The notes under the pieces were generated by a model. That model had not been told where the DNA came from and did no database searches. It saw nothing but the letters and a program-made list of their open reading frames with translations. From a virus (Duplodnaviria > Heunggongvirae > Uroviricota > Caudoviricetes), in IMG/VR virus record IMGVR_UViG_2663763400_000006: a DNA stretch of 55,493 nucleotides, one strand, 5' to 3'. Below, in pieces: positions 20,840 to 39,364 of this stretch (position 1 is its first letter; each line of letters starts with the position of its first letter). The position numbers and the translations under genes were made by a program.

Positions 20840-21060
20840 CATTTTGCGGGTCCTTTCCGGCGATCCGACAGGTTACGGGGCGGCGACCTCGCGGGTTTTC
20901 GCTATTTATGAAAATTTTCCGGTTTAAGGTGTTTCCGTTCTTCTTCGCCGTAACCTAATGTTTTTATTTAAAACACCCCCTGAAAAGAAAGGAAACGACA
21001 GGTGCTGAAAGCGAGCTTTTTGGCCTCTGTCGTTTCCTTTCTCTGTTTTTGTCCGTGGAA
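20840..21060. other. Phage cos site (cosQ-cosN-cosB)
   Basis: GGGCGGCGACCT cohesive-end sequence at about 20878-20889 inside gggtcctttccggcgatcc...cgggttttcgctatttatga, directly upstream of Nu1; lambda-like as recalled. Confidence 0.85.
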
Positions 21061-21612: not shown

Positions 21613-25293
<3,681 letters not shown>

Positions 25294-25313
<20 letters not shown>

Positions 25314-26613: not shown

Positions 26614-26622
26614 GGGATGTTT

Positions 26623-26955
26623 ATGACGAGCAAAGAAACCTTTACCCATTACCAGCCGCTGGGCAACAGTGACCCGGCTCATACCGCAACCGCGCCAGGC
26701 GGATTGAGTGCGAAAGCGCCTGCAATGACCCCGCTGATGCTGGACACCTCCACCCGTAAGCTGGTTGCGTGGGATGGCACCACCGACGGTGCTGCCGTTG
26801 GCATTCTTGCTGTTGCTGCTGACCAGACCAGCACCACGCTGACGTTCTACAAGTCCGGCACGTTCCGTTATGAGGATGTGCTCTGGCCGGAGGCTGCCAG
26901 CGACGAGACGAAAAAACGGACCGCGTTTGCCGGAACGGCAATCAGCATCGTTTAA
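26623..26955 (+). CDS. D: Head decoration protein D
   Basis: [43 protein letters not shown]... matches lambda D as recalled; AAGGGA Shine-Dalgarno. Confidence 0.9.
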
Positions 26956-26959
26956 CCTT

Positions 26960-26995
26960 ACCCTTCATCACTAAAGGCCGCCTGTGCGGCTTTTT
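26960..26995 (+). terminator. Hairpin plus T-tract between D and E
   Basis: ggccgcctgtgcggc followed by ttttttt. Confidence 0.4.
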
Positions 26996-27010
26996 TTACG
27001 GGATTTTTTT

Positions 27011-27256
27011 ATGTCGATGTACACAACCGCCCAGCTGCTGGCGGCAAATGAGCAGAAATTTAAGTTTGATCCGCTGTTTCTGCGTCTCTTTTTCCGTGAG
27101 AGCTATCCCTTCACCACGGAGAAAGTCTATCTCTCACAAATTCCGGGGCTGGTAAACATGGCGCTGTACGTTTCGCCGATTGTTTCCGGTGAGGTTATCC
27201 GCTCCCGTGGCGGCTCCACCTCTGAATTTACGCCGGGATATGTCAAGCCGAAGCAC
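27011..27256 (+). pseudogene. E: Major capsid protein E, 5' fragment truncated by an insertion
   Basis: MSMYTTAQLLAANEQKFKFDPLFLRLFFRESYPFTTEKVYLSQIPGLVNMALYVSPIVSGEVIRSRGGSTSEFTPGYVKPKH then diverges into 9 unrelated codons and a stop at 27286. Confidence 0.85.
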
Positions 27257-27365
27257 TTAGCATGGCTTTCTGAGGCTTTCGTGTAGTTGCTGGTTTTTAC
27301 ACTTAATCTTTTGATAATAAAGAATAAGTTTATCTGGTGCTTTCACTGAATTTTCCTCGTTATCT

Positions 27366-27403
27366 GTGTGTTGCAATCATCTCTGTATTGCAGCTTGTAT
27401 TGC
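27366..27403. repeat. TGTATTGCA-type direct repeats upstream of the island integrase (possible arm sites)
   Basis: ctgtgtgttgcaatcatctctgtattgcagcttgtattgc; a similar pair occurs near the right end at about 38014-38040. Confidence 0.4.
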
Positions 27404-27418
27404 TTTTTGGGGCTAAAA

Positions 27419-28654
27419 ATGGCTGGCGAGAACAAACTGAGCGACAAAGCGCTTAAAGGATATCTGGGGAAACCCAGAGAAAAGCAGATCACCATTGCTG
27501 ATGGAAAGGGGCTTTCTATTCGTGTGAGTACTAAAGGGGCTGTGAGCTTTGTTTTCTTCTACAGGTTAGCAGGTGGCCGGGCTGCTCCGGTCTGGCTAAC
27601 GTTGGGTAAATATCCTGATATGTCACTCAAACAGGCAAGGGAAAAGCGCGACGAGTGCCGTGGTTGGTTGGCTGACAAACGTGATCCGCGTATCCAGATT
27701 AAGATTCAGGCTGAAGAACGCTTAAAGCCGGTCACTGTGGAGGATGCACTAAATTACTGGTATGAAAATTACTGTAAGGTGCGTCGTAAAACTCATGCTG
27801 TAACGCTTGGCAGATTTCGAAAGCATATCTTTCCCTATATCGGTCATTTGCCCGTAAATGACACTCACCTATATGAATGGCTGGACTGTTTTGACCGAAT
27901 TAAACGTAATGCACCAGTTATGGCGGCGTATGTTTTTTCTGACACTAAATTAGCTCTTCGTTTTTGTCGGGTACGCCAGTACGCGACGTGTGATGCTTTA
28001 AAGGATTTGCGCATGAGTGATGTGGGGCAGATTGCAGGTAAGCGGGATCGGGTTCTGGATGAAGCCGAACTCGGCCAGCTCTGGAAGGCAATTTTTGTCG
28101 AGCCTGATTTAAAACTAATGTCTGAATACACGCGAAAAATGTTTGTGCTTTGTACAGTATTTGGATGTCGAATGAGTGAAGCCCGATTATCAGAATGGAG
28201 CGAATGGGATCTCGAAAGTTGGGTTTGGACTGTACCAAAAGATCACTCAAAAACTGGTGTTGAAATCGTCAGACCAGTACCTGAAATTCTACGACAGTGG
28301 GTAACGGATGTTCACGAAGAGACAAAACATACTGGTTATGTGCTGGGAAGTCTGCGAATTAGAGAAAGCGTAAGCAAGATTGGGGGGAAAATCGGTAAAC
28401 GTTTGGGCCATGAAAAACAATGGTCACTACACGACCTTAGAAGAACGCTATCTACTCATCTAAGTGATCTCGGTGTTGAATTTTATGTAGTAGAACAACT
28501 GTTAGGCCATGCGCTACCTGGCGTGGCAGGTGTTTACAACCGGAGTAAGTTTATGGCTAAAAAACTGGATGCTCTGGAACTCTGGACTACATATCTCAAT
28601 AGCATCGCAGGTGCTGATTCAAAAGTGACAATCCTCAAACAAAAGGTTGGTTAA
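27419..28654 (+). CDS. int: Island tyrosine integrase (P4/CP4-57 type)
   Basis: MAGENKLSDKALKG...GKGLSIRVSTKG N-terminus typical of P4-family integrases; C-terminal HDLRRT...LGHA...YNRSK catalytic motifs. Confidence 0.85.
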   Translation: MAGENKLSDKALKGYLGKPREKQITIADGKGLSIRVSTKGAVSFVFFYRLAGGRAAPVWLTLGKYPDMSLKQAREKRDECRGWLADKRDPRIQIKIQAEERLKPVTVEDALNYWYENYCKVRRKTHAVTLGRFRKHIFPYIGHLPVNDTHLYEWLDCFDRIKRNAPVMAAYVFSDTKLALRFCRVRQYATCDALKDLRMSDVGQIAGKRDRVLDEAELGQLWKAIFVEPDLKLMSEYTRKMFVLCTVFGCRMSEARLSEWSEWDLESWVWTVPKDHSKTGVEIVRPVPEILRQWVTDVHEETKHTGYVLGSLRIRESVSKIGGKIGKRLGHEKQWSLHDLRRTLSTHLSDLGVEFYVVEQLLGHALPGVAGVYNRSKFMAKKLDALELWTTYLNSIAGADSKVTILKQKVG

Positions 28655-28655
28655 C

Positions 28656-28883
28656 ATGAAAAAAATGGCAATTGTTGATAAAAAGGGTCTGGAGTACATT
28701 CCTAACATTGACCGAATGATCCGTGAGAAAGAATGTCGGGAGCTAACCACTCTTGCGAACAGCACACGCTGGAAGCTGGAGAAGGAAGGAAAATTTCCTA
28801 AGCGGATCAAGATTGGTTCCACTGCTGTTGCATATCGTCTTTCAGAAGTGCAGGCATGGATTCGAGGTGAGTGGGTAGTTTAA
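28656..28883 (+). CDS. alpA: AlpA-family excisionase/transcriptional regulator
   Basis: MKKMAIVDKKGLEYIPNIDRMIREKECRELTTLANSTRWKLEKEGKFPKRIKIGSTAVAYRLSEVQAWI, AlpA-like HTH; directly follows the integrase. Confidence 0.7.
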   Translation: MKKMAIVDKKGLEYIPNIDRMIREKECRELTTLANSTRWKLEKEGKFPKRIKIGSTAVAYRLSEVQAWIRGEWVV

Positions 28884-28952
28884 ATTATCTCAGAATAAAA
28901 TATTATGAATTACTGATTTGAGAATTTGTACTCAAATCAGTAATAACATTCT

Positions 28953-29489
28953 TTATAAGAGATTAAATCCAAATAAAGAGTAATCATATACCGGGGTGCA
29001 TTGCATTCCACTGAATATGCTGATGTTTTTTTCTGTTTCTATCCTTTTTTCAATAAGTTGTTGTATATTTTTACAGTACAATTTGTGTGTGATGTTATTA
29101 TCGTAAGCCTGATATAGCAACGTCAATGTTGACGCTAGGAAACATACAGATAAAATTAAAGTAACATATGCGGTTTTTTTATTTTTTGTCCATGATCTAT
29201 TTGTTTGTGAAATATAAAGAATTCTGATGTGGATAATGGTGAGAGACAATAGCAGGCCACTCAATAAAATAAGTATTGGGTTTGCGTATTTTATTAATGG
29301 TTGAGAGCAAAAAACTATTATAGCTCCTGTGACTGCGTATGAGAAAAAGGAGTAATTAAACTTCTTACTCCTTCTCTCAAGTATTTTAATTTCATCTTGT
29401 GTGGGGGTTTTAGATGCCTCTAATATAAGTTTATTGAATGTTTCTGTTATCTTGTTTTTTGTGTTTGTGGCTATTTTTTTTAGATTCAT
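28953..29489 (-). CDS. Unknown multi-pass membrane protein (island cargo)
   Basis: 178-aa ORF, extremely AT-rich, three to four hydrophobic helices; antisense to int and alpA. Confidence 0.5.
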   Translation of the reverse strand: MNLKKIATNTKNKITETFNKLILEASKTPTQDEIKILERRSKKFNYSFFSYAVTGAIIVFCSQPLIKYANPILILLSGLLLSLTIIHIRILYISQTNRSWTKNKKTAYVTLILSVCFLASTLTLLYQAYDNNITHKLYCKNIQQLIEKRIETEKNISIFSGMQCTPVYDYSLFGFNLL

Positions 29490-29839
29490 AGCATTCTAAC
29501 TCCCTTAACTTATTTATTACTTTCTCTTTATGATAAGAGAGGGGAATGACTTGGTAAAGTGATTTGTCATTAATAATGATAATCCTTGCGATAAATATTT
29601 CTGCAAGTTATTTATCTGTTTGTTGCTATCTTGTTAAGCGTTGGGTGTGGTTTATGTTTGGAGCGACTTTATTTAATCGTGATTTTATGGATTTATATTT
29701 ATATCCTGTAAGATAAGCGCATGTTAGTTCAGGAGTAGTGTCAGATAAAATTATTCGGAGTAGAACTACCTTTTCTGTTTATTGCCAGTATTTACATAGC
29801 AATGCGCCGTAGTTACTCACATCACGGCGCTGATACTAA

Positions 29840-30142
29840 TTATTCAGATTCTTTGGCTTTACGCCGCTGGAGTTCTTCACGAGCGACGGCTACGAGTTGC
29901 CCGATTTCCTCCGCTGCCTTGATGCCGATTTGTTCGACCTTAGCTAAGGCATCCAGTGAAGACACGAGGGGATTTTCTCCGCTTCCTTCTGCCTGGCGGC
30001 GGGCGATCTCACCGCGCATGGCGGTTACTATGAATCCGGCGTTGCTCTCGCCGTCCAGTTTTACGGATTCCATGCCCTCCATAACATCGTGGGGAACCCT
30101 GATCGTTGTCATTTGCGATTTTGCATTTTTGTATACAGACAT
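29840..30142 (-). CDS. Putative ribbon-helix-helix regulator (candidate island repressor)
   Basis: 100-aa ORF (MTTIRVPHDVMEGMESVKL...), divergent from the rightward island operon across a repeat-containing intergenic region. Confidence 0.4.
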   Translation of the reverse strand: MSVYKNAKSQMTTIRVPHDVMEGMESVKLDGESNAGFIVTAMRGEIARRQAEGSGENPLVSSLDALAKVEQIGIKAAEEIGQLVAVAREELQRRKAKESE

Positions 30143-30149
30143 AGTTAAT

Positions 30150-30260
30150 CACCAATTTGTTATGTGTATATCACTATACACAAAAGTGATATATAAAAAC
30201 ACTTGCAATGTATATCACCACAATATAATGTATATCTCACATTATGGTCGCTATGTATCT
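30150..30260. promoter_or_regulatory. Island divergent promoter/operator region with TGTATATCAC-type repeats
   Basis: tgtgtatatcactatacacaaaagtgatatataaaaacacttgcaatgtatatcaccacaatataatgtatatctcaca: four or more copies of TGTATATC(A/T)C in both orientations. Confidence 0.45.
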
Positions 30261-30350
30261 CACAATGATCGATTCATAAAAACGACGAAACCCGGCAGTG
30301 CGCGAACACTAACCGGGCTTCTAACCAAACCGTTAAACGAGGTAACGATT

Positions 30351-30716
30351 ATGGCTGGAACACAGCATACCCAAACTCACCCTAAATTTATATACACCTT
30401 TCTGGCACTACACCACGACCGCATGGCAGATGGAGCAACTACGGTACATGTAGCCGCTGACACGCTGGTTGATGCCCGCAAGATGGTTAAGGAGATGGGC
30501 TATACTGCGGCTTTCTGGAAAGGGCGTGAAGAAAACACGCTGTTTATTCAGAAATGCGAAAACAATTTCATCTGGCGTTTTATCGCCCTGAGTACGGCAC
30601 AACCGCGCGTGATTCACATCGTGGCCACCAGCGAACAGGAAGCCCGCCAGCAATCCCCGGCTGGTTGCGTGAGGGTATTCGCCGCCCGTATTCGTCAGGA
30701 GGTATGCCGTGCTTAA
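30351..30716 (+). CDS. Hypothetical protein, first gene of the rightward island operon
   Basis: 121-aa ORF beginning MAGTQHTQTHPKF; the ORF-track entry 29802..30716 is this gene with a spurious upstream extension. Confidence 0.4.
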   Translation: MAGTQHTQTHPKFIYTFLALHHDRMADGATTVHVAADTLVDARKMVKEMGYTAAFWKGREENTLFIQKCENNFIWRFIALSTAQPRVIHIVATSEQEARQQSPAGCVRVFAARIRQEVCRA

Positions 30717-30894
30717 AACCTTCCGTGTATTTGCCCGAGCGGTTAACCCACGAGGCCACACAATTGGTATCACTCAGAACGTGAAGGCTGTTAATGTTCA
30801 GACGGCTATTGCTGTGGTGAGAAGCGAATCATCAGAATATGGCTTATCACAAGTCATTATTTCAGCAGTGTATGAATTAAAAGAGGTGCATTAA
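30709..30894 (+). CDS. Hypothetical small protein
   Basis: 61-aa ORF, tightly packed with neighbours. Confidence 0.3.
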   Translation: MLKTFRVFARAVNPRGHTIGITQNVKAVNVQTAIAVVRSESSEYGLSQVIISAVYELKEVH

Positions 30895-31085
30895 TGCAGG
30901 AAATTACATTACACGAAGCCGCTGAACGTGCGCACCAGACAGAAATTATTTGCCGCCTTCTTGAGGTATACCCGAACAAAATTACAGATGCTGATATATC
31001 CGCACTGGCGAGCCTACTGGCGCGTCTTTCGGGAAGTGTCGCTAGTTTTTTGATTGAGGAAGAAAGTAAGCTGGTGGGGGATTAA
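30894..31085 (+). CDS. Hypothetical small protein
   Basis: 63-aa ORF, start overlaps the previous stop. Confidence 0.3.
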   Translation: MQEITLHEAAERAHQTEIICRLLEVYPNKITDADISALASLLARLSGSVASFLIEEESKLVGD

Positions 31086-31307
31086 ATGAATACAGAACGG
31101 GAAGTCTTTTTTAAATTGTTAGCATGTGCAGAAAGTTCATTAACTTTAAATAATTCAGCAAAAGCAATATTAAATATGTGGCTTGATTGCATAAATGACA
31201 ATGAAGATGCAAATATTGCTTATGGCCTGTTGTCACTTATTGATGAAGCAGCAGAAAAACTCAATGACGCAATAAATAGTGCCCTGTTATCAAATAAGTC
31301 GAGTTAA
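31086..31307 (+). CDS. Hypothetical small protein
   Basis: 73-aa acidic ORF. Confidence 0.3.
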   Translation: MNTEREVFFKLLACAESSLTLNNSAKAILNMWLDCINDNEDANIAYGLLSLIDEAAEKLNDAINSALLSNKSS

Positions 31308-31324
31308 GTCGAGGAATAAATAAT

Positions 31325-31624
31325 ATGGAAATGAAAAATTCTGGCTTTATTGCCAGCGGCCCCGCTCGGCCTGAATTTATGAACGGCGATATTTACCGCG
31401 ATAAATACGGCGGCACGGTAACGATTAAAGGCGTGGCAGAACGGCGCATCACTTACCGCCGTGAGGGGTATAGCTATGACTGCGTGATGCCTGTTTATCA
31501 GTTCCGGCGTGATTTTTCCCTGGTATATGCCGCACCTCGCAGTAAGCCCACCAGCAGGGAAAAAGCGCGGGGAAACATCCAGAAAATGAAAAGCATGATT
31601 AACGCATTCAGGGGCAAAAAATGA
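31325..31624 (+). CDS. Hypothetical small protein
   Basis: 99-aa ORF overlapping the primase start. Confidence 0.3.
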   Translation: MEMKNSGFIASGPARPEFMNGDIYRDKYGGTVTIKGVAERRITYRREGYSYDCVMPVYQFRRDFSLVYAAPRSKPTSREKARGNIQKMKSMINAFRGKK

Positions 31625-33372
31625 AACTGGCACCGAACTTAAAAAAACAGCCACGCGACAGACTGACAGAGGTAATCATCTTTGCAGGTAGTGATGCGTG
31701 GAGCCATGCGAAAGAGTGGCAGGAATGGGCGGGTAAACATATTGCCGCCGACGATGTGCCGCCTGTCGTGCTGGCTGATGAGCAACTGAAAAACATCATC
31801 GATTACCGGATCATTGATGAAGATCGTCAGTGTGTGCGTGTTTACCGCGCAGGACATATCACAGAGCACAGCATGACGCAGATTGTTACGTTACTGGCTG
31901 TGGCTGGAGTGAAGACCGTACACGAATACGCGGGGATTACTGACACCAGCCCCGTGGATTTATCCGACCAGTTGCCGCGACTCAAAGAGGAATGCGAGCG
32001 TGGGGAAAGTCTGGTGCTTAATCTTCCGACGAAGCAAAAGGCGCAACTTTCACAGATGGCAGACAGTGAACGTGCACAACTACTTGCCGATCGCTTTGAT
32101 GGTGTGTGTGTTCATGCAGAAAGTGAAATCGTCCACGTATGGCGCGGCGGGGTATGGTGTCCGGTCAGCACAATGGAGCTGAGCCGCGAAATGGTGGCGA
32201 TCTATTCAGAGCACAGGGCCACGTTCAGCAAACGTGTAATCAATAACGCCGTGGAAGCGTTAAAAGTTATTGCCGACCCCATGGGGGAGCCGTCCGGTGA
32301 TTTACTACCGTTCACTAATGGTGTGCTTAACCTGAAAACGGGGGATTTTTCTCCGCACTTACCGGAGCACTGGAGCACCACGCACAATGGCATTGAGTAC
32401 ACGCCACCAGTAGCAGGGGAAAACATCCGCGATAATGCGCCAAATTTCCATAAATGGCTTGAACATGCTGCAGGAAAAGACCCGCGCAAGATGATGCGTA
32501 TATGTGCCGCGTTATACATGATTATGGCGAACCGCTACGACTGGCAGATGTTCATTGAGGCCACCGGAGACGGGGGAAGCGGTAAGAGTACATTTACCCA
32601 TATTGCCACCCTGCTTGCTGGCAAACAGAACACCGTAAGCGCAGAGATGACATCACTCGATGATGCAGGAGGGCGCGCGCAGGTTGTCGGGAGTCGTCTT
32701 ATCGTCCTTGCCGATCAGCTGAAATATACGGGGGAAGGCACGGGCATCAAGAAAATCACGGGAGGCGATCCCGTTGAAATTAACCCGAAATATGAGAAGC
32801 GATTCACGACGATAATAAGGGCGGTGGTACTGGCAACCAATAACGACCCGATGATCTTTACCGAACGGGCCGGAGGTGTGTCACGCCGTCGGGTGATTTT
32901 CCGGTTCGACAACATTGTAAGGGAGGACGAAAAAGACAAGGAATTACCGGAAAAGATAGCGGCAGAAATCCCCGTAATTATCCGCCGCTTGCTGGCTAAT
33001 TTTGCTGACCCTGAAAAGGCACGGGCTTTATTACTGGAACAGCGTGACGGTGATGAAGCTCTGGCAATAAAGCAGCAAACGGATCCGGTTGTTGAGCTTT
33101 GCGCGGCGCTGGAGTTTCTGGAGGAAGCTCGTGGGCTAATGATGGGCGGTGGTGGTGACACCGTGAAGTACACGACCAGAAACAGCCTTTACCGTGTCTA
33201 TATGGCCTTCATGGCATATACAGGAAAGGGGAAATGTTTGAGCGTGAATGAGTTCGGAAAGGCTATGAGGTCAGCGGCGAAAGTTTACGGATATGAATAT
33301 ATTACGCGAAAAGTTAAGGGAGTCACGCAGACCAACGCAACGACTACTGATGATTGCGATGCGTTTTTATAA
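31621..33372 (+). CDS. Primase-helicase replication protein (D5_N / P4 alpha-like)
   Basis: 583 aa with Walker A GDGGSGKST and downstream helicase-like motifs. Confidence 0.8.
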   Translation: MKLAPNLKKQPRDRLTEVIIFAGSDAWSHAKEWQEWAGKHIAADDVPPVVLADEQLKNIIDYRIIDEDRQCVRVYRAGHITEHSMTQIVTLLAVAGVKTVHEYAGITDTSPVDLSDQLPRLKEECERGESLVLNLPTKQKAQLSQMADSERAQLLADRFDGVCVHAESEIVHVWRGGVWCPVSTMELSREMVAIYSEHRATFSKRVINNAVEALKVIADPMGEPSGDLLPFTNGVLNLKTGDFSPHLPEHWSTTHNGIEYTPPVAGENIRDNAPNFHKWLEHAAGKDPRKMMRICAALYMIMANRYDWQMFIEATGDGGSGKSTFTHIATLLAGKQNTVSAEMTSLDDAGGRAQVVGSRLIVLADQLKYTGEGTGIKKITGGDPVEINPKYEKRFTTIIRAVVLATNNDPMIFTERAGGVSRRRVIFRFDNIVREDEKDKELPEKIAAEIPVIIRRLLANFADPEKARALLLEQRDGDEALAIKQQTDPVVELCAALEFLEEARGLMMGGGGDTVKYTTRNSLYRVYMAFMAYTGKGKCLSVNEFGKAMRSAAKVYGYEYITRKVKGVTQTNATTTDDCDAFL

Positions 33373-33389
33373 AAAATGGCAATGGTTAT

Positions 33390-33640
33390 CTACCTTGTCT
33401 ACCTGACTGAAATAAAATACTTTTATTTCAATGTATTAATGCAGGTAGATAACTATTTTTCACTGTCTACCTGTTATCTACCTTATCTACCCATTTTTGT
33501 AGACAGGTAAGGAGACGGGTAGAGATGAGGTAGACAGCTATTTGGGGCTGTCTACCTCCCTGAAACCCGCGCCATTACTGGCCTGATAACTAATCAGGTA
33601 GACAAGGTAGACAAGGTGGTGGTGCACAAAAAACTTTTTA
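33390..33640. repeat. Island replication origin iterons
   Basis: Ten or more copies of GGTAGACA / TGTCTACC in both orientations immediately downstream of the primase-helicase gene. Confidence 0.65.
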
Positions 33641-33661
33641 AACGAGGGGGTAAAAATAAAA

Positions 33662-33904
33662 ATGCACACATCAGGAAAACTGAACAAACATATAAAGCCA
33701 CATTACCGCGCCCTTGATATGGCTGAACACTGGCTAAGGGTGGCGATTAAGGCAATAGACCGCAACGCCGGGGAAGGATACGCGAAAGCACATCCCGAAC
33801 TGATAAGCGCATTCATGACAACGGCGGCTGCAAACTTTGCCACGCTGACCGAACGGGAGATTGCCGAAGCGGAGGAAGTGACAACCATCAATATTAAGTC
33901 CTGA
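33662..33904 (+). CDS. Hypothetical protein
   Basis: 80-aa ORF between the origin and ssb. Confidence 0.3.
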   Translation: MHTSGKLNKHIKPHYRALDMAEHWLRVAIKAIDRNAGEGYAKAHPELISAFMTTAAANFATLTEREIAEAEEVTTINIKS

Positions 33905-33915
33905 GAGCAGGCAGC

Positions 33916-34365
33916 ATGACGGCGCAAATAGCAGCTTACGGGCGGCTGGTGGACGACCCACAGGTAAAACATACCAGCAAGGGAACACCCATGACACTGG
34001 CACGGATGGCGGTATCTTTGCCATGCAGCCAGGCAGATGACGGAACGGCGACGATGTGGTTATCTGTGCTGGCGTTTGGCAGACAAGCCGACGCGCTGGC
34101 AAAGCATCACAAAGGCGAACTCCTGAGCGTGGCGGGTAATATGCAGGTGAGCCAGTGGAGCGGACAGAACGGGGAAACGCGGCAGGGCTGGCAGGTTATC
34201 GCAGACAGCGTAATCAGTGCCAGAACGGTGCGACCGGGCGGCAAAAAAGGTCAACAGGGGCAGGCTACTGATGCACTGAACAGAGCAAAACAACAGGCAG
34301 ATCAGCAAGGAAGCCATCCACCAGTGGGAGATAATGAGCAATGGGGAGATGATATTCCGTTTTAA
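33916..34365 (+). CDS. ssb: Single-stranded DNA-binding protein
   Basis: OB-fold-like N-terminal domain and Gly/Gln-rich tail ending in the acidic motif DDIPF. Confidence 0.7.
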   Translation: MTAQIAAYGRLVDDPQVKHTSKGTPMTLARMAVSLPCSQADDGTATMWLSVLAFGRQADALAKHHKGELLSVAGNMQVSQWSGQNGETRQGWQVIADSVISARTVRPGGKKGQQGQATDALNRAKQQADQQGSHPPVGDNEQWGDDIPF

Positions 34366-34575
34366 ATATTGCCAATAAAAAAGGCCGGAAAAAATATATT
34401 TTCCGGCATGCTACATAAATCCCGACCAAAGGGAGTGAAGATATTAACACTAATTATCCGCGCTGAAGTTGTCATCCCAAAACTTTATACAACATTGCAC
34501 TCGGTTGCATGTGTTAGCATGACAAATATCGGTGATAGCATATATCCACAATTATTTTTAATGAATGTAAAGAGG

Positions 34576-35622
34576 ATGAGTATGGTTGATTTATATTCGC
34601 CTGCCCAGCTTGTGCAGGTGGCTAATGCAGAAGAGGTGCAAAAAAAATTAAATGCATTGTTTACCAGTTTGTTTTTCACTCGCTCGGTAATGTTTGAATC
34701 AAGAGACATTATTCTTGATACAATCGACGATCCAAATATCCCAATTGCAGCGTTTTGTTCTCCTATGGTGGGTAGTAAAGTTTCACGTGACGAAGGGTAC
34801 GAATCAAAGACAATTCGTCCAGGCTATATGAAGCCGAAAAGCAGCATTGATCCAAATAAGTTAGCTGTGCGCCCTGCTGGTGTATCACCTGAGCAATACA
34901 ATGCTTTTGGAGCGCGTAATATTAAAGTTAAACAGGCGATTGTAAATCAGGCTAAAGCTATTCGTGCACGTATTGAATGGCTTGCCGTTCAGGCAATCAC
35001 AACGGGGAAAAATATCATTGAGGGCGATGGCATTGAACGCTATGAACTGGACTGGAATATAAAACCACAAAATATTATCACGCAGTCCGGCGGTGCTGAG
35101 TGGTCAGGTAAGGATAAAGAAACTTTTGATCCAAATGATGATATTGAGAGCTACGCAGAATTTAGTGAGGGCGTCACTAATATCATCATTATGGGCGGTA
35201 ATGTATGGAAGAAATACCGTTCATTCAGAGCGATAAAAGAGGCTCTGGATACCCGTCGTGGTTCTAATTCCGAACTGGAAACGGCCCTTAAAGACCTTGG
35301 TGATTCGGTGAGTTTTAAAGGGTATATGGGCGATGTTGCGATTGTTGTATACAGCGGGCGTTATACCGACGAGGACGGAACTGAAAAACATTTCCTTGAT
35401 CCTGATTTGATGGTGCTTGGCAATACGGCTCTTCAGGGGATTGTCGCCTATGGCGGTATTCAGGATCCGGAGCTAATCCGAATGGGGCTGACTAAAGCCG
35501 AACTTGCACCGAAAAACTATATTGTGCCTGGTGATCCGGCTATTGAATATGTGCAGACACATTCAGCACCACAGCCAATACCGGCCCGCATCAATCGTTT
35601 TGTTACCGTTCGCATTGGCTAA
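34576..35622 (+). CDS. Island-encoded major capsid protein homologue (divergent gpE)
   Basis: TQSGGAEWSGKDKETFDPNDDIESYAEF...RSFRAIKEALDTRRGSNSELETALKDLG...YMGDVAIVVYSG aligns with lambda E (TQSGGTEWSKRDKSTYDPTDDIEAYAL...FRSFKAVKEKLDTRRGS.SELETAVKDLG...GDVAIVVYSG); ATG 34576 with AAGAGG Shine-Dalgarno. Confidence 0.8.
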   Translation: MSMVDLYSPAQLVQVANAEEVQKKLNALFTSLFFTRSVMFESRDIILDTIDDPNIPIAAFCSPMVGSKVSRDEGYESKTIRPGYMKPKSSIDPNKLAVRPAGVSPEQYNAFGARNIKVKQAIVNQAKAIRARIEWLAVQAITTGKNIIEGDGIERYELDWNIKPQNIITQSGGAEWSGKDKETFDPNDDIESYAEFSEGVTNIIIMGGNVWKKYRSFRAIKEALDTRRGSNSELETALKDLGDSVSFKGYMGDVAIVVYSGRYTDEDGTEKHFLDPDLMVLGNTALQGIVAYGGIQDPELIRMGLTKAELAPKNYIVPGDPAIEYVQTHSAPQPIPARINRFVTVRIG

Positions 35623-35631
35623 GGGGGAGCA

Positions 35632-35973
35632 ATGGCTACTCATTACACTGAACTCATGGCTGGCACTGAAGCACTGGTGACTACGCTGGGGATATTTTCA
35701 GCTAATAAAGGGGTAATTCCTGCATTTACGCCACTGATGCAGGAAGATGCAACAGGTGCACTGGTGGTATGGGATGGTTCGAGCGTAGGTAAAGCGGTTT
35801 ATGTTTCCGCTGTACAAATCGACACCGCGAAAAAAACACAGGCTCAGGTCTATAAGACAGGTGTCTTAAATGTTGATGCTCTGAACTGGCCTGAGTCTGT
35901 AAAAGAACTGTCAGTAAAGATTGCAGCGTTTGTTGGCTCAGGTATTTCTGTTCAGCCGCTGGCTCGTGTGTAA
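35632..35973 (+). CDS. Island-encoded decoration protein homologue (gpD-like)
   Basis: FTPLMQEDATGALVVWDGSSVGKAV and VYKTGVLNVDALNWPE align with lambda D ([41 protein letters not shown]). Confidence 0.65.
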   Translation: MATHYTELMAGTEALVTTLGIFSANKGVIPAFTPLMQEDATGALVVWDGSSVGKAVYVSAVQIDTAKKTQAQVYKTGVLNVDALNWPESVKELSVKIAAFVGSGISVQPLARV

Positions 35974-35984
35974 AGGGGGATACA

Positions 35985-36368
35985 ATGCAGAATCATTACA
36001 ATGACCTTAAGCCAATTGCCGAAATGATGTATCCGGATCCAGCAGTAGAGGAATTAAAGGCTATTGCTGACAAAATGCGTTTAAGCGAGCGTCTTGTTGA
36101 TATGAATCAGGTGATGGAACTTACAACCCTGAGTCGTCGTACACTGCTAAACCTTGAAGCACGTGGAGAGTTCCCCGAACGCGTGCAGGTTACGGAAGGG
36201 CGTAAGGCCTGGTATTTAAGCGAAGTGATCGACTGGATAAACAATATTCCGCGCGCTTCTGAATATTGCCGCGTACCTGTCCCAAAAAAGCCAGATGCGG
36301 CGCTATGCCTCAAGATTGAGCGTGTACGCCGCAATGCGCGGGATGGTCGCTATAAGCTGATTGGTTGA
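35985..36368 (+). CDS. AlpA-like HTH protein (second copy in the island)
   Basis: LTTLSRRTLLNLEARGEFPERVQVTEGRKAWYLSEVIDWI resembles the AlpA-family HTH signature. Confidence 0.45.
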   Translation: MQNHYNDLKPIAEMMYPDPAVEELKAIADKMRLSERLVDMNQVMELTTLSRRTLLNLEARGEFPERVQVTEGRKAWYLSEVIDWINNIPRASEYCRVPVPKKPDAALCLKIERVRRNARDGRYKLIG

Positions 36369-36379
36369 TGAAATTAGGG

Positions 36380-36470
36380 CCCGTTCTGGCTGGCGGGTCC
36401 TTTCCGGCGATCCAGAACGTTACGGGGCGGCGACCTCGCGGGTTTTCGCTATTTATGAGCATTTTTAGGG
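36380..36470. other. Second cos site (island), cosN conserved with the prophage cos
   Basis: gggtcctttccggcgatccagaacgttacggggcggcgacctcgcgggttttcgctatttatga is nearly identical to 20840-20910; downstream (cosB) sequence differs. Confidence 0.75.
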
Positions 36471-36584
36471 GACTGGTGGTGGTTTTGTTGTTCGCTATAT
36501 CTGTATGAATAATAAGAGAAAAACACAATCAACACACCAACCTGAAACAGTAATTAAGTTGTGGTATCAATGAAATTGCACCTG

Positions 36585-37112
36585 ATGAACAAAAAAAACA
36601 TGGCAAAAAGTTGCCGTGTAAGCGCCACTGCGTTCGATAAGTGGGGAGTGATTCCCGTCGAGCGTAAGGGCCGCGAGGCGTTTTATGATGTCGCCAGTGT
36701 AATAGATAATCGGGTTAACAATGCAATCAGCCAGATTACAAACGAAACGGGCGAGATTGATGATGATGAACTCCTACGAGTCAGGATCAGATTGCTGACA
36801 GCACAGGCAGAGGCGCAGGAGCTTAAAAACGAGCGCGAACGCGGCGACGTTATTGATACAGCGTTTTGTATATACGTGCTTTCAAAACTGGCGAGTCAGA
36901 TTTCTTCAATCATGGACAGCCTGCCGCTTGCCATGACAAGGAAGTTTCCCGACATGAAGCCGTCTATGCTGGATGGACTGAAAAAAGAAGTTATCAGAGC
37001 CTGTAACGCATGCGCAAAACTTGACGAAAACATACCGCTGATGCTGTCCGATTATCTGATGGAAACTGCCGGAAACGTACCGGATAAGTTGCAGCTGAAT
37101 AAAGATAAGTAA
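36585..37112 (+). CDS. Island small terminase homologue (Nu1-like)
   Basis: LLTAQAEAQELKNERERGDVIDTAFCIYVLSKLASQISSIMDSLPLAMTRKFPDMK aligns with prophage Nu1 LTRAQADAQELKNARDSAEVVETAFCTFVLSRIAGEIASILDGIPLSVQRRFPELE; start taken at MNKKNMAK. Confidence 0.75.
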   Translation: MNKKNMAKSCRVSATAFDKWGVIPVERKGREAFYDVASVIDNRVNNAISQITNETGEIDDDELLRVRIRLLTAQAEAQELKNERERGDVIDTAFCIYVLSKLASQISSIMDSLPLAMTRKFPDMKPSMLDGLKKEVIRACNACAKLDENIPLMLSDYLMETAGNVPDKLQLNKDK

Positions 37113-37123
37113 CGTAGTACGCT

Positions 37124-37405
37124 ATGACTGAATCCGAAATACTGCGATTAATCCGCCGTGCTTGTGGAATCAGCAAGCAGCATGACGAACAGGCCACGCA
37201 GCCGGACAGCGTGATCGCCGAAAATTACGCGCGTGTTGTTGCTGATGTGATGCGCCGTGATGGTATTGAGCTTAACGGCGTGGATATGCGCGACATACGG
37301 ATCAGATTCCTTGAGTTGCTGGCATACCGTCGCCGTTCTCAACAACGAAGGGAGAGCGCGAAAAACACTTATCAGTGGAAGAAGCCGGAACGGTTGCGGC
37401 GGTAG
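37124..37405 (+). CDS. Hypothetical protein
   Basis: 93-aa basic ORF following the terS-like gene. Confidence 0.3.
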   Translation: MTESEILRLIRRACGISKQHDEQATQPDSVIAENYARVVADVMRRDGIELNGVDMRDIRIRFLELLAYRRRSQQRRESAKNTYQWKKPERLRR

Positions 37406-38141
37406 ATTCCTGATATTCAGGAAAACCACGAATCCGGGGGTTTTACTGGCGCGGTGTACACGGTGGAACGTATAGCGTTACCTGACTTATTGCATTGTAA
37501 AAAGTTGAAAGGCACGGCCTGTAAGATGGGATGTGGTGAGTAGTTTAAAGCTACCCGCAAATTCTTTCGTTGTGCTGGCACAGGCGGTTAAACCGTCGGT
37601 AACTGGATAATCCCCACTGGGGGAAAAGCTGGCTACATCCCTCACATCTGAGGACTGATAACGCAAAATTGCGTTGGCTGGCAGAGTGCAAATTTGCACG
37701 ATGGCCTAACCCATTGATTCTTTCGAAAACCCCCATTGGGGGAGAACGGGGGAATAAACCTGACTCATTGATTTTTCCACAATCCTTAATTTGAGGAAGC
37801 TGGATAGTTGCACTACCCAAAAAGTGCAGTACCCACATAGCTGCTTAATAGCGTTTATTTTTTCCGCACACCTCAAATCTGAGAAGGCCGGAATGATGAC
37901 ATGGCAGGATTATGATTCCTTGATTTCAAGGAGTCCTCCAGTGTGAAAATGAAATTATCTGGGCTGGTGGGTGAGTTGCTGATCTGCAACTCGGCTATGA
38001 AACTTAATAATCGAACAGCATGTAAATTCATTTCTGTGTATTGCAGCATGTATTGCAACATAGTCATTCTGGTAGAGATTATGCTCTATTTTTCCTCTTA
38101 TATCATTCACATACTTACGTCATTGACTCATGTAGCCGAAG

Positions 38142-38924
38142 CATGAGGTGAATCCGCAGATGACCCTGCGTCGCCTGCCGGATGAAGATCCGCAGAATCT
38201 GGCGGACCCGGCTTACCGCCGCCGTCGCATCATTATGCAGAACATGCGTGACGAAGAGCTGGCCATTGCCCAGGTCGAAGAGATGCAGGCAGTTTCTGCC
38301 GTGCTTAAGGGCAAATACACCATGACCGGTGAAGCTTTCGATCCGGTTGAGGTGGATATGGGCCGCAGTGCGGCCAACAACATCACGCAGTCCGGCGGCA
38401 CGGAGTGGAGCAAGCGTGACAAGTCCACGTATGACCCGACCGACGATATCGAAGCCTACGCGCTGAACGCCAGCGGAGTGGTGAATATCATCGTGTTTGA
38501 TCCGAAAGGCTGGGCGCTGTTCCGTTCCTTCAAAGCCGTCAAGGAGAAGCTGGATACTCGTCGCGGCTCTCATTCCGAGCTGGAGACAGCGGTGAAAGAC
38601 CTGGGCAAAGCGGTGTCCTACAAGGGGATGTATGGCGATGTGGCCATCGTCGTGTATTCCGGACAGTACGTGGAAAACGGCGTCAAAAAGAACTTCCTGC
38701 CGGACAACACGATGGTGCTGGGGAACACTCAGGCACGCGGTCTGCGCACCTATGGCTGCATTCAGGATGCGGACGCACAGCGCGAAGGCATTAACGCCTC
38801 TGCCCGTTACCCGAAAAACTGGGTGACCACCGGCGATCCGGCGCGTGAGTTCACCATGATTCAGTCAGCACCGCTGATGCTGCTGGCTGATCCTGATGAG
38901 TTCGTGTCTGTACAACTGGCGTAA
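38142..38924 (+). pseudogene. E: Major capsid protein E, 3' fragment
   Basis: HEVNPQMTLRRLPDEDPQNLADPAYRRRRIIMQNMRDEE... to the lambda E C-terminus; continues the 5' fragment exactly once the insert is removed. Confidence 0.85.
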
Positions 38925-38965
38925 TCATGGCCCTTCGGGGCCATTTTCTCTCTGTGGAGGAGTTC

Positions 38966-39364
38966 ATGACGAAAGATGAACTGATTGCCCGTCTTCAGGA
39001 GCTGGGTGAGCAACTGAACCGCGATGTCAGTTTGACGGGAACGAAAGAAGAACTGGCGCTTCGTGTGGCAGAGCTGGAAGAAGAGCTTGATGACACGGAT
39101 GAAACTGCCGGTCAGGACACCCCTCTCAGCCGGGAAAATGTGCTGACCGGGCATGAAAATGAGGTGGTATCAGCGCAGCCGGATACCGTGATTCAGGATA
39201 CGGCTGAACTGGTCACGGTTGTGGCACTGGTGACGCTGCATACTGATGCACTTCACGCCACGCGGGATGAACCTGTGGCATTTGTGCTGCCGGGAACGGC
39301 GTTCCGTGTCTCTGCCGGTGTGGCAGCTGAAATGACAGAGCGCGGCCTGGCCAGAATGCAATAA
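38966..39364 (+). CDS. FI: DNA packaging protein FI
   Basis: MTKDELIARLQELGEQLNRDVSLTGTKEELALRVAELEEELDDTDE... matches lambda FI as recalled. Confidence 0.85.
   Translation: MTKDELIARLQELGEQLNRDVSLTGTKEELALRVAELEEELDDTDETAGQDTPLSRENVLTGHENEVVSAQPDTVIQDTAELVTVVALVTLHTDALHATRDEPVAFVLPGTAFRVSAGVAAEMTERGLARMQ

What the first reader, a model, noticed from the sequence alone, without database searches (positions are those of the whole stretch)
37410..38133. Roughly 700 bp palindrome-rich non-coding right end of the island
No convincing ORF in the coding direction. The region contains several perfect palindromes (ccccactggggg, cccccattggggg, tgcaaatttgca) and a TGTATTGCA repeat pair (about 38014-38040) that echoes repeats upstream of the integrase (27366-27403). 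It could hold attR arm sites, a structured RNA, or both.
Basis: seen in the sequence. Interest (0 to 1): 0.45.

Follow-up and report, generated by a model that had tools for sequence, protein, structure and literature searches.

The report
Satellite attR arm plus Roi-box array
This is the non-coding right end of a phage satellite that sits inside its helper prophage's capsid gene: it holds the satellite's already published integrase arm repeats and, further in, a short array of palindrome-plus-IHF-site modules that match a stretch inside phage roi regulator genes, so it most likely works as protein-binding DNA, not as an RNA gene.

Summary
Bases 37410-38133 have no credible ORF and hold the densest cluster of palindromes in the window: 8 against a mean of 1.3, reached by 0 of 500 shuffles.

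The island is a 10,888-bp helper-embedded PICI satellite of the '11capE' type (Tommasini et al. 2023). It splits the lambda-like capsid gene E at a 10-bp core, AGCCGAAGCA. Removing it in silico restores a 341-aa E.

The TGTATTGCA pairs are that paper's doubled attP motif, at the published distances from the core (81 and 132 bp).

The satellite cos site lies elsewhere, at 36395-36470.

The inner 400 bp is shared with hundreds of E. coli satellites, including the model EcCICFT073. It is a mosaic of Bro-family gene fragments and a tandem array of about 54-bp units. Each unit is a 13-bp palindrome, 10 nt, then an IHF consensus. The same module lies inside the roi genes of HK022, HK629/VT2-Sakai and 933W-like phages, where each allele has its own palindrome.

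My best reading is an array of Roi-operator/IHF sites that acts as DNA. Whether it works as a decoy, a sensor or a roadblock is unproven.

Nothing supports a structured RNA. The att part is already known. I did not find the array described in the literature I could search.

The parts
38134..38143 (+). attR core (10-bp identity block AGCCGAAGCA). Its partner, the attL core, is at 27246-27255.
   Evidence: Read directly from the sequence. Joining 27011-27255 to 38144-38924 restores an uninterrupted 341-aa lambda-E-like ORF. This matches the 10-bp block described for 11capE (PMC10111431).
38035..38057 (+). P-arm doubled motif tgTGTATTGCAgcaTGTATTGCA, the presumed integrase arm-type sites.
   Evidence: It ends 81 bp before the core centre (38138.5), against a published 81 +/- 2 bp. 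It is conserved in the portal-type HE-PICIs L007 and L009, and it is duplicated in L132.
27367..27404 (+). P'-arm doubled motif (TGTATTGCAgctTGTATTGCT at 27384-27404) plus a degenerate half-site TGTGTTGCA at 27367. It lies 15 bp before the int start codon at 27419.
   Evidence: The motif with its 2-base prefix starts at 27382, 132 bp after the core centre (27250.5), against a published 132 +/- 2 bp.
27304..27316 (-). IHF consensus TATCAAAAGATTA between the attL core and the P' motif. Candidate architectural site of attP.
   Evidence: One of only 5 matches to WATCAANNNNTTR in the whole window, both strands counted. Binding was not tested.
37704..37759 (-). Array unit a, read in roi-sense (minus strand): palindrome CCCCCAATGGGGG (37730-37742), 10-nt spacer (37720-37729), IHF consensus AATCAATGGGTTA (37707-37719).
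   Evidence: Same architecture as HK629/VT2-Sakai roi codons 42-56: CCCCCAATGGTGG-TTTTCGAAAA-AATCAATAACTTA. It is present in EcCICFT073 and many other satellites.
37760..37806 (-). Array unit c: palindrome CCTCAAATTAAGG (37784-37796, one mismatch), 10-nt spacer, IHF-like AATCAATGAGTCA (37761-37773, one consensus position off).
   Evidence: Bases 37755-37806 (which run 5 nt into unit a) are 88% identical over 52 nt to the 5' part of real roi/KilAC genes: the E2348/69 prophage and phages Lahn2, JLK-2012 and phi330. Both elements are perfect in L002, L006, L007 and L012.
37655..37703 (.). Two perfect palindromes, AACGCAAAATTGCGTT (37660-37675) and GTGCAAATTTGCAC (37686-37699), 10 nt apart. This is the most widely conserved block, directly flanking the array. 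Operator-like, partner unknown.
   Evidence: The block running from here to about 37798 (query positions 255-393) recurs among the weaker matches, out of 845 genomes of 5426 with any match to 37406-37830. It is conserved in 20 distinct arrays and has no match in phage genomes.
37419..37477 (+). Fragment of a KilA-N gene (decayed).
   Evidence: 88% identical to HK620 hkbK and other KilA-N genes. PGAP calls the equivalent stretch a partial KilA-N pseudogene in strain S1-KEN-03-A.
37524..37567 (-). Fragment of an ORF6N-domain (Bro-network) gene (decayed).
   Evidence: 93% identical at the DNA level, and KNLRVALNYSPHPI against KELRVALNYSQNPI at the protein level.
37606..37653 (.). Further short modules: CCCCACTGGGG (37612-37622), which is roi-unit-like but has no IHF site, and CCTCACATCTGAGG (37640-37653). 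The second recurs at 37868-37885 and several times in L002.
37812..38030 (.). Outer P-arm segment specific to this integrase/att type. It carries palindromes TGCACT..AGTGCA (37812-37831), TCCTTGATTTCAAGGA (37917-37932) and GAGTTGC..GCAACTC (37973-37992). Candidate sites for the AlpA-type directionality factor; unproven.
   Evidence: Found only in the 5 genomes with this att type. It is about 85% conserved in the capsid-type variant L132, where both palindromes are kept and are even longer.
36395..36470 (+). Satellite cos site (cosQ-like sequence, then cosN GGGCGGCGACCT at 36425-36436). It lies outside the finding and is listed to show where packaging recognition sits.
   Evidence: The cosN is identical to the helper's at 20878-20889. 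It matches EcCICFT073 cos1 and cos2 (92% and 85% identity). There is no second cosN in 37410-38133 at up to 2 mismatches.

Best explanation
Bases 37410-38133 are the non-coding, attR-proximal end of a 10.9-kb helper-embedded PICI satellite inserted in gene E of a lambda-like prophage. The region works as DNA, in three layers.

1. Bases ~38030-38143 are the P arm of the satellite's attP. A doubled TGTATTGCA arm-type motif lies 81 bp from the AGCCGAAGCA crossover core. Together with the P' motif in front of int, it assembles the integrase for integration and excision. This layer is shown by geometry and by the published description.

2. Bases ~37655-37806 are a cassette shared by many enterobacterial satellites. 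It has two perfect palindromes followed by a tandem array of about 54-bp units. Each unit is a 13-bp palindrome, 10 nt, then an IHF consensus. This module is the same as one that lies inside the DNA-binding-domain coding part of phage roi genes, where each roi allele has its own palindrome. As I recall the literature, HK022 Roi binds a site inside its own gene next to an IHF site. I infer that the array binds host IHF and Roi-type (Rha/KilAC) regulators of helper or competing lambdoid phages. It would form a phased nucleoprotein block next to attP, acting as a sink or sensor for Roi or as a roadblock. The binding and its consequence are inferred, not shown.

3. Bases 37419-37650 are decayed fragments of other Bro-network genes (KilA-N, ORF6N), probably inert.
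For: Island and att:
- Split E gene, 10-bp core, and E restored by in-silico excision.
- Integrase with Arm-DNA-bind_3 and Phage_integrase domains.
- PGAP annotation of the near-identical element.
- The published doubled motif and its distances are reproduced.

Shared cassette:
- 845 of 5426 E. coli genomes match part of 37406-37830. In every satellite locus I fetched, the match lay between the last satellite gene and attR, whatever the integration site.

Module identity:
- HK022 roi carries CCTGCATTGCAGC + 10 nt + AATCAATGATTTA. The E2348-type carries CCTCAAATTGAGG + 10 nt + AATCAATGGGTTA. The HK629/VT2-Sakai type carries CCCCCAATGGTGG + 10 nt + AATCAATAACTTA.
- This is the only IHF consensus in HK022 roi.
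- It sits in a hypervariable cassette, 43-73% identical between alleles (up to 83% at its edge) against mostly 86-100% in the rest of the gene. That cassette encodes the Rha-like N-terminal domain.

Satellite units:
- 24 distinct variants. Twenty have exactly a 10-nt spacer (two have 9, two have 11). Five main palindrome types, mostly perfect. The IHF consensus is kept in 19 of 24.
- At the orthologous first unit, four different palindromes replace each other in a constant backbone. All 8 fully specified IHF positions are invariant, while 11 of 21 other positions vary (one-sided Fisher p=0.01).
- The HK022-type palindrome occurs in satellites without HK022 flanks. The palindrome itself is therefore what is swapped.
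- Copy number runs from 1 to 3, and the orientation is reversed in some islands. That fits a site that works in either orientation.
- In satellites the palindrome is perfect (GGGGG) where the coding copy in HK629 is imperfect (GGTGG).
Against: - Binding of Roi or IHF was not tested and cannot be tested here.
- The statement that HK022 Roi binds inside roi next to an IHF site is my recollection of Clerget & Boccard 1996 (PMID 8763934). I could confirm the citation but could not read the paper.
- Neither the island nor the part of the helper prophage in this window encodes a Roi.
- Lambda is reported to mobilise EcCICFT073 (PMC6092414). From memory, lambda has no roi, so the array cannot be essential for basic transfer.
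- In this island, unit c is slightly degenerate, with one mismatch in the palindrome and one in the IHF consensus. That suggests weak constraint.
- Perfect palindromes can be maintained by hairpin-templated (quasipalindrome) mutation without any selection.
- The samples are small: 13 to 24 distinct variants. They were partly picked with patterns that include the features being scored.
Confidence: 0.55

Rival explanations
1. Inert debris. The inner 400 bp is only the decayed remains of roi, KilA-N and ORF6N genes once carried or captured by the satellite. It looks conserved because the satellites are recently related and recombine. It has no present function. The palindromes are inherited from the coding sequences and kept perfect by template-switch mutation.
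For: - The fragments match real phage genes at 88-93% over only 44-60 nt, on both strands.
- PGAP labels one of them a partial pseudogene.
- The 37421-37654 block is missing from many satellites.
- Unit c is degenerate in this island.
- No cognate Roi is encoded nearby.
Against: - Only the 54-nt palindrome/IHF segment of roi is retained. It is repeated in tandem, with palindromes matching those of different alleles placed in one constant backbone.
- The spacing is fixed at 10 nt in 20 of 24 variants.
- IHF consensus positions are invariant while neighbouring positions vary.
- The cassette is found at the same place in satellites with unrelated integrases and integration sites.
Confidence: 0.3
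2. RNA-level function. The region is transcribed as the 3' end of the satellite late operon. It would act either as a structured non-coding RNA or as an antisense RNA against helper roi mRNA, since the units are antisense to roi in this island.
For: - The plus-strand fold has a z-score of -3.0.
- The units lie antisense to roi relative to the satellite's late operon in the window and in most loci.
- The consensus scan found only one weak terminator-like site between the last gene and the array.
Against: - There is no Rfam match.
- The stability comes from local palindromes that fold equally on both strands.
- Module order, copy number and orientation differ between satellites.
- The HK022-type unit shares only its 13-nt palindrome with HK022 roi, which is too short for antisense pairing.
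- Substitutions spare the IHF consensus positions rather than preserving overall complementarity to roi.
Confidence: 0.07
3. Transcription terminator or insulator. The GC hairpins followed by T-runs on the minus strand (for example CCCCCAATGGGGG-TTTTCGAAAG) would stop transcription entering the island from the flank. In inverted copies they would end the satellite's own operon.
For: - Unit a and its counterpart in L007 have a 5-6-bp GC stem followed by TTTTCGAAA on the minus strand.
- In L006 and L008 the cassette lies just 3' of the last gene, in that orientation.
Against: - The stems are very short, with 1-3-nt loops and only 4 T residues.
- Units with the ATTGTGGAAG spacer have no T-run at all.
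- The scanner found no terminator-like site at these hairpins.
- This idea does not explain the fixed IHF consensus.
Confidence: 0.05
4. Packaging site. The region would be a second cos (like cos2 of EcCICFT073) or the pac/cosB recognition region for the satellite's Nu1-like protein.
For: - EcCICFT073 has two cos sites near its right end (PMC6092414).
- IHF sites are part of lambda cosB (PMC9026076).
Against: - cosN occurs once in the satellite, at 36425-36436, 1.0-1.7 kb to the left of the finding. There is none in 37410-38133 at up to 2 mismatches.
- Neither EcCICFT073 cos1 nor cos2 matches the region.
- In EcCICFT073 both cos sites lie left of the last gene, whereas the roi-like modules lie right of it.
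Confidence: 0.02

Closest known systems
Helper-embedded PICI Eco567.11capE in prophage 50icd of E. coli NRG857c (Tommasini, Mageeney & Williams 2023, PMC10111431)
   Same: - About 11 kb, integrated in and co-oriented with the lambda-E-type capsid gene of a lambdoid prophage.
- A 10-bp identity block.
- Its own E and D homologues.
- The doubled TGTATTGCA attP motif at -81 and +132.
- The four-zone gene order.
   Different: - 11capE is described as lacking terS and as sharing 258 bp (90% identity) with its helper's cos region. This element has a Nu1-like gene, and its cos shares little beyond cosQ/cosN with the helper's.
- NRG857c is not among the 5 genomes that match the whole finding.
- The paper does not mention roi, Rha or palindromes, and mentions IHF only to say the doubled motif does not resemble an IHF site. 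So the roi-like array is not described there.
EcCICFT073, the model Gram-negative cos PICI (Fillol-Salom et al. 2018, 2019; PMC6092414, PMC6739421)
   Same: - Same late-zone order: capsid E-like, D-like, cos followed by an rpp-position gene, a conserved 93-aa last gene (79% nt identity), then about 550 bp of non-coding DNA before attR.
- That non-coding DNA also carries palindrome + 10 nt + IHF modules: two that fit the pattern fully (CCCCCAATGGGGG and TCGCCGCTGGCGA) plus two further related palindromes.
   Different: - A different integrase and a chromosomal att site (between roxA/ycfD and phoQ).
- Two cos sites.
- Only about 42 nt of the finding aligns directly.
- I found no mention of this non-coding end in the passages of those papers that I read.
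The Roi binding site with adjacent IHF site inside gene roi of phage HK022 (Clerget & Boccard 1996, J Bacteriol 178:4077; recalled from memory). Related: the rha genes of phi80 and P22, which inhibit phage growth in IHF mutants (Henthorn & Friedman 1995; also from memory).
   Same: A palindrome, 10 nt, then the IHF consensus, at codons 42-56 of roi in HK022 and in two other alleles. The satellite units have the same architecture and, for three types, the same palindromes.
   Different: - In phages the module is single and embedded in coding sequence.
- In satellites it is non-coding, tandemly repeated 1-3 times, mixes palindromes matching those of different alleles, has perfected palindromes, and has no adjacent roi gene.
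Lambda attP (arm-type Int sites plus IHF/Xis/Fis sites flanking a core)
   Same: Arm-type repeats on both sides of a short crossover core. An integrase with an arm-binding N-terminal domain. An IHF consensus in the P' arm.
   Different: The arm repeat sequence, the spacing and the integrase clade all differ. The roi-like array lies 340-430 bp from the core, outside a lambda-sized attP.
BIME/RIP-type intergenic repeats of E. coli (palindromic units flanking an IHF site)
   Same: A short palindrome next to an IHF consensus, in mosaic and variable arrangements.
   Different: No resemblance to the REP consensus as I remember it (no alignment was run). Low copy number: median 1 place per genome, 6 at most. 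In the loci I examined, confined to satellite ends and roi genes.

Membership tests
Helper-embedded PICI (HE-PICI) | [quoted passage not shown] | tested here: met
   Gene E is split at 27255/38144. Island genes and E are both on the plus strand. A stop codon lies in the E frame immediately before the attR core. Excision in silico restores a 341-aa E.
Helper-embedded PICI (HE-PICI) | Doubled TGTATTGC motif, two copies per attP, 81 +/- 2 bp upstream and 132 +/- 2 bp downstream of the attP centre. | tested here: met
   38035-38057 ends 81.5 bp before the centre. 27382 begins 131.5 bp after it.
Helper-embedded PICI (HE-PICI) | Integrase belongs to the single HE-PICI phylogenetic clade, capsid-site subclade. 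| not tested
   Only the domain architecture was checked (Arm-DNA-bind_3, SAM-like, Phage_integrase). No phylogeny was made.
Helper-embedded PICI (HE-PICI) | Four-zone PICI organisation: int-alpA, then Bro/immunity, then pri-ori, then late zone. | tested here: met
   int 27419-28654, alpA-type HTH 28647-28883, icd-like/YlcI zone, primase 31621-33372 with iterons after it, ssb, E-like, D-like, HTH, cos, Nu1-like.
Gram-negative cos PICI | Carries cosQ/cosN like the helper's, but a different cosB, next to an rpp-type gene. | tested here: met
   The cosN at 36425-36436 is identical to the helper's. The flanks diverge after about 36470. A Nu1-like gene follows. This feature lies outside the finding's coordinates.
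Roi operator / IHF module of roi genes | A 13-bp palindrome, 10 nt, then WATCAANNNNTTR, as found at codons 42-56 of roi. | tested here: met
   Unit a at 37707-37742 is perfect. Unit c at 37761-37796 has one mismatch in each element. Compared with HK022, E2348-type and HK629/VT2-Sakai roi.
Roi operator / IHF module of roi genes | Bound by Roi, with IHF stabilising the complex. | not testable with these tools
   This needs EMSA, footprinting or ChIP. The primary paper could not be read here.
Described structured RNA (any Rfam 15 family) | A covariance-model match at or near the gathering score. | tested here: not met
   cmscan of 26500-39000 at E<=1 gave no hit inside 37410-38133. The only hit was a sub-threshold symR-like match at 30284-30356.
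Intrinsic terminator | A GC-rich stem-loop followed by a U-tract, placed at the end of a transcription unit. | tested here: inconclusive
   The scan reports one weak plus-strand site at 37699-37716 and none at the array hairpins. Minus-strand CCCCCAATGGGGG-TTTT is terminator-like but minimal.

The most novel reading that the evidence does not exclude
Enterobacterial phage satellites keep, beside attP, a multi-specificity array of optimised Roi operators with phased IHF sites. These sites match the module inside the DNA-binding-domain coding region of different roi alleles. The array would capture Roi-type regulators of helper or rival lambdoid phages, including Stx phages. That would time or bias the satellite's excision and expression, or sabotage the phage. 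If so, it is a cis-acting protein-trap element of a kind not yet described for satellites.
Probability: 0.25. Interest if true: 0.65.

Novelty: new variant of a known kind. Interest (0 to 1): 0.4.

Why it matters
Most of the finding turns out to be ordinary and already published. It is the attR side of a helper-embedded PICI with its integrase arm repeats.

What is left is a testable lead. A conserved, unannotated cassette at the end of hundreds of E. coli satellites, including the laboratory model EcCICFT073, is built from the palindrome/IHF module found inside phage roi genes. From memory, Roi/Rha proteins are phage regulators whose effect on lytic growth depends on IHF, and how they work remains obscure. 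Roi is carried by many Stx phages (PMC3430580).

If satellites use these sites to bind Roi, three things would follow:
- a new route of satellite-phage cross-talk;
- a handle on what Roi does;
- a possible influence of satellites on Stx-phage induction.

The roi genes also illustrate a neat arrangement. The presumed operator lies inside the hypervariable segment that encodes the protein's own recognition domain, so the site and its specificity would be inherited together.

Tried and rejected
- cos site in the region: rejected. cosN is at 36425-36436, and EcCICFT073 cos1 and cos2 match only there and at the helper cos.
- Similarity to the helper cos region, as reported for 11capE: none for 37300-38200.
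- tRNA or tmRNA as the att target: none in the window.
- Rfam: nothing in the region.
- Hidden protein gene: the 95-aa and 67-aa ORFs have no Pfam hit. Six-frame translation shows stops in all frames and only 11-20-aa patches similar to Bro-network proteins.
- Replication iterons or a crr-like element: the ori iterons (TCTACC type, 33380-33620) are not repeated here, apart from a single GGTAGAT at the stop codon of the last gene (seen by reading).
- A tblastn search for a fourth roi allele that would encode the TCGCCGCTGGCGA module found nothing in the phage collection.
- Clerget & Boccard 1996 could not be retrieved by PMID or PMC id. No held paper restates the location of the Roi site.
- Co-occurrence of array type and roi allele within genomes could not be computed, because the tools list only the top hits. 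Only prevalences were obtained: the HK022-type cassette matches in 75 genomes, the HK629-type in 265 and the E2348-type in 707 of 5426. Full-length matches number 75, 170 and 85, so the partial hits may include satellite units rather than roi genes.
Full report
**1. What the region is part of**

The sequence to the right of 38134 continues the lambda major capsid protein E ('...KPKHEVNPQMTLRRLPDEDPQ...'). The first 82 codons of E lie at 27011-27255. The two halves are separated by 10,888 bp and bounded by a direct 10-bp repeat, AGCCGAAGCA, at 27246-27255 and 38134-38143. Joining 27011-27255 to 38144-38924 gives an uninterrupted 341-aa E.

The insert encodes, all on the plus strand:
- a tyrosine integrase with an arm-binding domain (27419-28654);
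- an AlpA-type regulator;
- an icd-like zone;
- a primase (31621-33372) followed by iterons;
- ssb;
- its own E and D homologues;
- a second AlpA-type HTH;
- a cos site and a Nu1-like gene;
- a 93-aa last gene ending at 37405.

The surrounding DNA is a lambda-like prophage with Nu1, A, portal, protease, D, the split E, and FI through J.

This arrangement has been described. [quoted passage not shown] So the finding really is the right end of an island.

**2. The observation**

No gene is annotated in this stretch in five E. coli genomes that carry it at 98.9-99.9% identity, and its ORFs have no family match.

Bases 37560-37850 contain 8 perfect inverted repeats. Dinucleotide shuffles give a mean of 1.3, and none of 500 reaches 8. 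Of 570 sliding windows over the 55 kb, only the one covering this stretch reaches it.

TGTATTGCA occurs three times in the whole window: at 27384, 38037 and 38049. A fourth copy, TGTATTGCT, is at 27396.

**3. The att arm (right ~110 bp)**

Tommasini et al. report a doubled motif, tgTGTATTGCantgTGTATTGCa. It is specific to HE-PICI attPs and lies 81 +/- 2 bp upstream and 132 +/- 2 bp downstream of the attP centre. Here the right copy (38035-38057) ends 81.5 bp before the centre of the core. The left copy begins 131.5 bp after it, 15 bp ahead of the int start codon. Portal-type HE-PICIs (L007, L009) carry the same motif, and a capsid-type variant (L132) has it duplicated.

An IHF consensus at 27304-27316 lies between the core and the left motif.

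The stretch 37812-38030 goes with this att type only. It carries two palindromes that are kept, and even lengthened, in L132. Binding sites for the AlpA-type directionality factor are a reasonable guess, but untested.

**4. What it is not**

*Not the cos site.* cosN (GGGCGGCGACCT) occurs twice in the window: in the helper at 20878 and in the satellite at 36425. The published cos1 and cos2 of EcCICFT073 match only those two places. The finding has no similarity to the helper's cos region.

*Not a recognisable RNA.* Rfam gives nothing at E<=1. Folding z-scores are -3.0 (plus strand), -1.8 (minus strand) and -1.95 (the arm). Local palindromes give values like these on both strands.

**5. The inner 400 bp is a cassette shared by many satellites**

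Part of 37406-37830 is found in 845 of 5426 complete E. coli genomes. In every satellite locus I fetched it lies between the last satellite gene and attR, whatever the integration site:
- next to dinD (L002, L006, L008);
- next to yejO (L010, L011);
- next to clpS (L012, L015);
- inside a prophage portal gene (L007, L009);
- in EcCICFT073, next to phoQ (L013).

The composition is mosaic:
- 37419-37477 is a fragment of a KilA-N gene. PGAP even calls it a partial pseudogene in one strain.
- 37524-37567 is a fragment of an ORF6N gene on the other strand.
- 37755-37806 is 88% identical to the 5' part of roi/KilAC antirepressor genes, antisense.

All of these are members of the 'Bro network' of domain-swapping phage DNA-binding proteins.

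**6. The tandem units**

I lined up the cassette from about 40 loci: E. coli genomes, plus IMG/VR contigs found with two sequence patterns. This shows a tandem array of about 54-bp units directly after two perfect palindromes, AACGCAAAATTGCGTT and GTGCAAATTTGCAC. Copy number is 1, 2 or 3. In L006 and L008 (shown by annotation; L046 has the same array type) the cassette is inverted relative to the satellite's genes.

Read on the minus strand, each unit is a 13-bp palindrome, a 10-nt spacer, then a match to the IHF consensus WATCAANNNNTTR. The window has only five such matches on both strands.

Among 24 distinct unit variants:
- the spacer is 10 nt in 20 of them;
- the IHF consensus is intact in 19;
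- the palindrome is one of CCCCCAATGGGGG, CCTCAAATTGAGG, CCTGCATTGCAGG, TCGCCGCTGGCGA or CCGCAGTCTGTGG, or a one-step variant of one of these.

At the orthologous first unit (13 distinct sequences), four different palindromes replace one another in an otherwise constant backbone. The eight fully specified IHF positions never vary, while 11 of 21 other positions do (one-sided Fisher p=0.01). One caveat: the units were collected with patterns that partly include these features.

In the window:
- unit a (palindrome 37730-37742, IHF site 37707-37719) is perfect;
- unit c (palindrome 37784-37796, IHF-like site 37761-37773) has one mismatch in each element.

EcCICFT073 has two modules that fit the pattern fully, plus two related palindromes, in its own non-coding end.

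**7. Where the units match**

The roi gene of HK022, located here by homology, reads at codons 42-56: CCTGCATTGCAGC-ACACTAACAT-AATCAATGATTTA. That is the same architecture, and it is the only IHF consensus in the gene.
- The E2348/69-type allele has CCTCAAATTGAGG-ATTGTGGAAG-AATCAATGGGTTA.
- The HK629/VT2-Sakai allele has CCCCCAATGGTGG-TTTTCGAAAA-AATCAATAACTTA.

These three alleles are nearly identical except for nt 60-210. There, identity drops to 43-73% (up to 83% at the edge), against mostly 86-100% elsewhere. This segment encodes the Rha-like N-terminal domain. The C-terminal half is an ANT/KilAC domain. Among 80 further roi genes of the E2348 type, the palindrome is invariant.

So three of the satellite palindromes are those of three roi alleles. 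In satellites the HK629-type palindrome is perfected (GGGGG where the coding copy has GGTGG). The HK022-type palindrome appears without HK022 flanks. This means the palindrome alone has been exchanged.

From memory, Clerget & Boccard (1996) showed that HK022 Roi binds a site within its own gene, closely linked to an IHF site, and that IHF stabilises that binding. Also from memory, Rha/Roi proteins inhibit phage growth in IHF-deficient hosts. I could confirm the citation but could not read the paper.

**8. Most likely mechanism**

The array is best read as DNA sites for IHF and for Roi-type proteins of several specificities, placed about 340-430 bp from the attP core. In the excised circle that position is upstream of attP and int.

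What binding would achieve is open. It could titrate a phage regulator, sense the lytic cycle of a roi-carrying phage, or form a roadblock at the island boundary. I give the binding-array reading about even odds.

Points against it:
- Neither this island nor the visible part of its helper encodes a Roi.
- Lambda (which, from memory, has no roi) mobilises EcCICFT073, so the array cannot be essential for transfer.
- Unit c is slightly decayed here.
- Perfect palindromes can persist through template-switch mutation.

The main rival, at about 0.3, is that the whole cassette is debris of captured Bro-network genes. Tandem repetition of exactly the palindrome/IHF segment, the fixed spacing, the swapped palindromes and the position-specific conservation argue against pure debris.

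An antisense or structured RNA, a terminator and a packaging site are each less likely. The reasons are given under the rival explanations.

**9. Novelty**

The island type, its att core and the TGTATTGCA arm motif are published. The roi-like array is not mentioned in the HE-PICI paper. It did not turn up in the EcCICFT073 passages I read or in my literature searches. It is a new context for a cis element known from one phage gene, which makes it a moderate and testable lead rather than a surprise.

Noticed in passing
window 36395-37112: The satellite's cos site has a cosQ-like sequence and a cosN (36425-36436) identical to the helper's at 20878-20889, but a divergent cosB. It is followed by a 183-aa gene with a strong Phage_Nu1 match (1.4e-24). 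That gene sits where EcCICFT073 has rppA. The published 11capE is described as lacking terS, so this capsid-site HE-PICI may use a different packaging-redirection variant.
   Followed up: partly
window 23712-25313: The helper prophage's portal gene has an internal stop at codon 157. PGAP flags the same gene as 'internal stop' in the near-identical prophage of strain FDAARGOS_1296. The helper is probably defective, so the composite may be stranded.
   Followed up: partly
window 30284-30356 (minus strand): A sub-threshold Rfam hit to the SymR antitoxin RNA (35 bits against a gathering score of 61, E=0.0012). It lies in the satellite's Bro/immunity zone, overlapping a 304-aa mechanical ORF. It might be a P4-CI-like immunity RNA of the kind mentioned for PICI Bro zones.
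   Followed up: no
window 33380-33620: A dense set of direct and inverted iterons (TTATCTACC / TGTCTACC) immediately after the primase gene. Presumably the satellite's replication origin.
   Followed up: no
window 35077-35093 and 38382-38398: The satellite's own capsid-E homologue and the helper's E share an exact 17-mer, although they are otherwise divergent. At the att position the satellite copy differs, which would prevent the satellite integrating into its own gene, as noted in the HE-PICI paper.
   Followed up: no
L048:4656-5381, L049:778-1500, L004:949-1671: roi alleles are nearly identical except for a hypervariable cassette (nt 60-210). This cassette encodes the Rha-like DNA-binding segment and also contains the palindrome and IHF site. 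The presumed operator and the specificity determinant are therefore physically the same piece of DNA and must be inherited together.
   Followed up: partly
L002:12426-12560; L010 and L045 right ends: The right ends of other satellites hold further perfect palindromes of unknown origin, for example the 19-bp ACTACGAAATTTTCGTAGT, sometimes twice. They also hold repeated CTCA(N)ATCTGAG hairpins. In L002 and L014 an antiterminator-Q-family gene follows the cassette.
   Followed up: no
L001:6540-9128: In strain FDAARGOS_1296 the otherwise near-identical satellite has an IS66 element inserted in its primase gene. The window's copy has an intact primase.
   Followed up: no
L138:19941-20666: E. coli NRG857c is the strain in which 11capE was studied. 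It carries an HK022-type roi in its P22-like prophage at torS, not in the satellite's helper. If the array binds Roi, the relevant partner could be a rival prophage rather than the helper.
   Followed up: no
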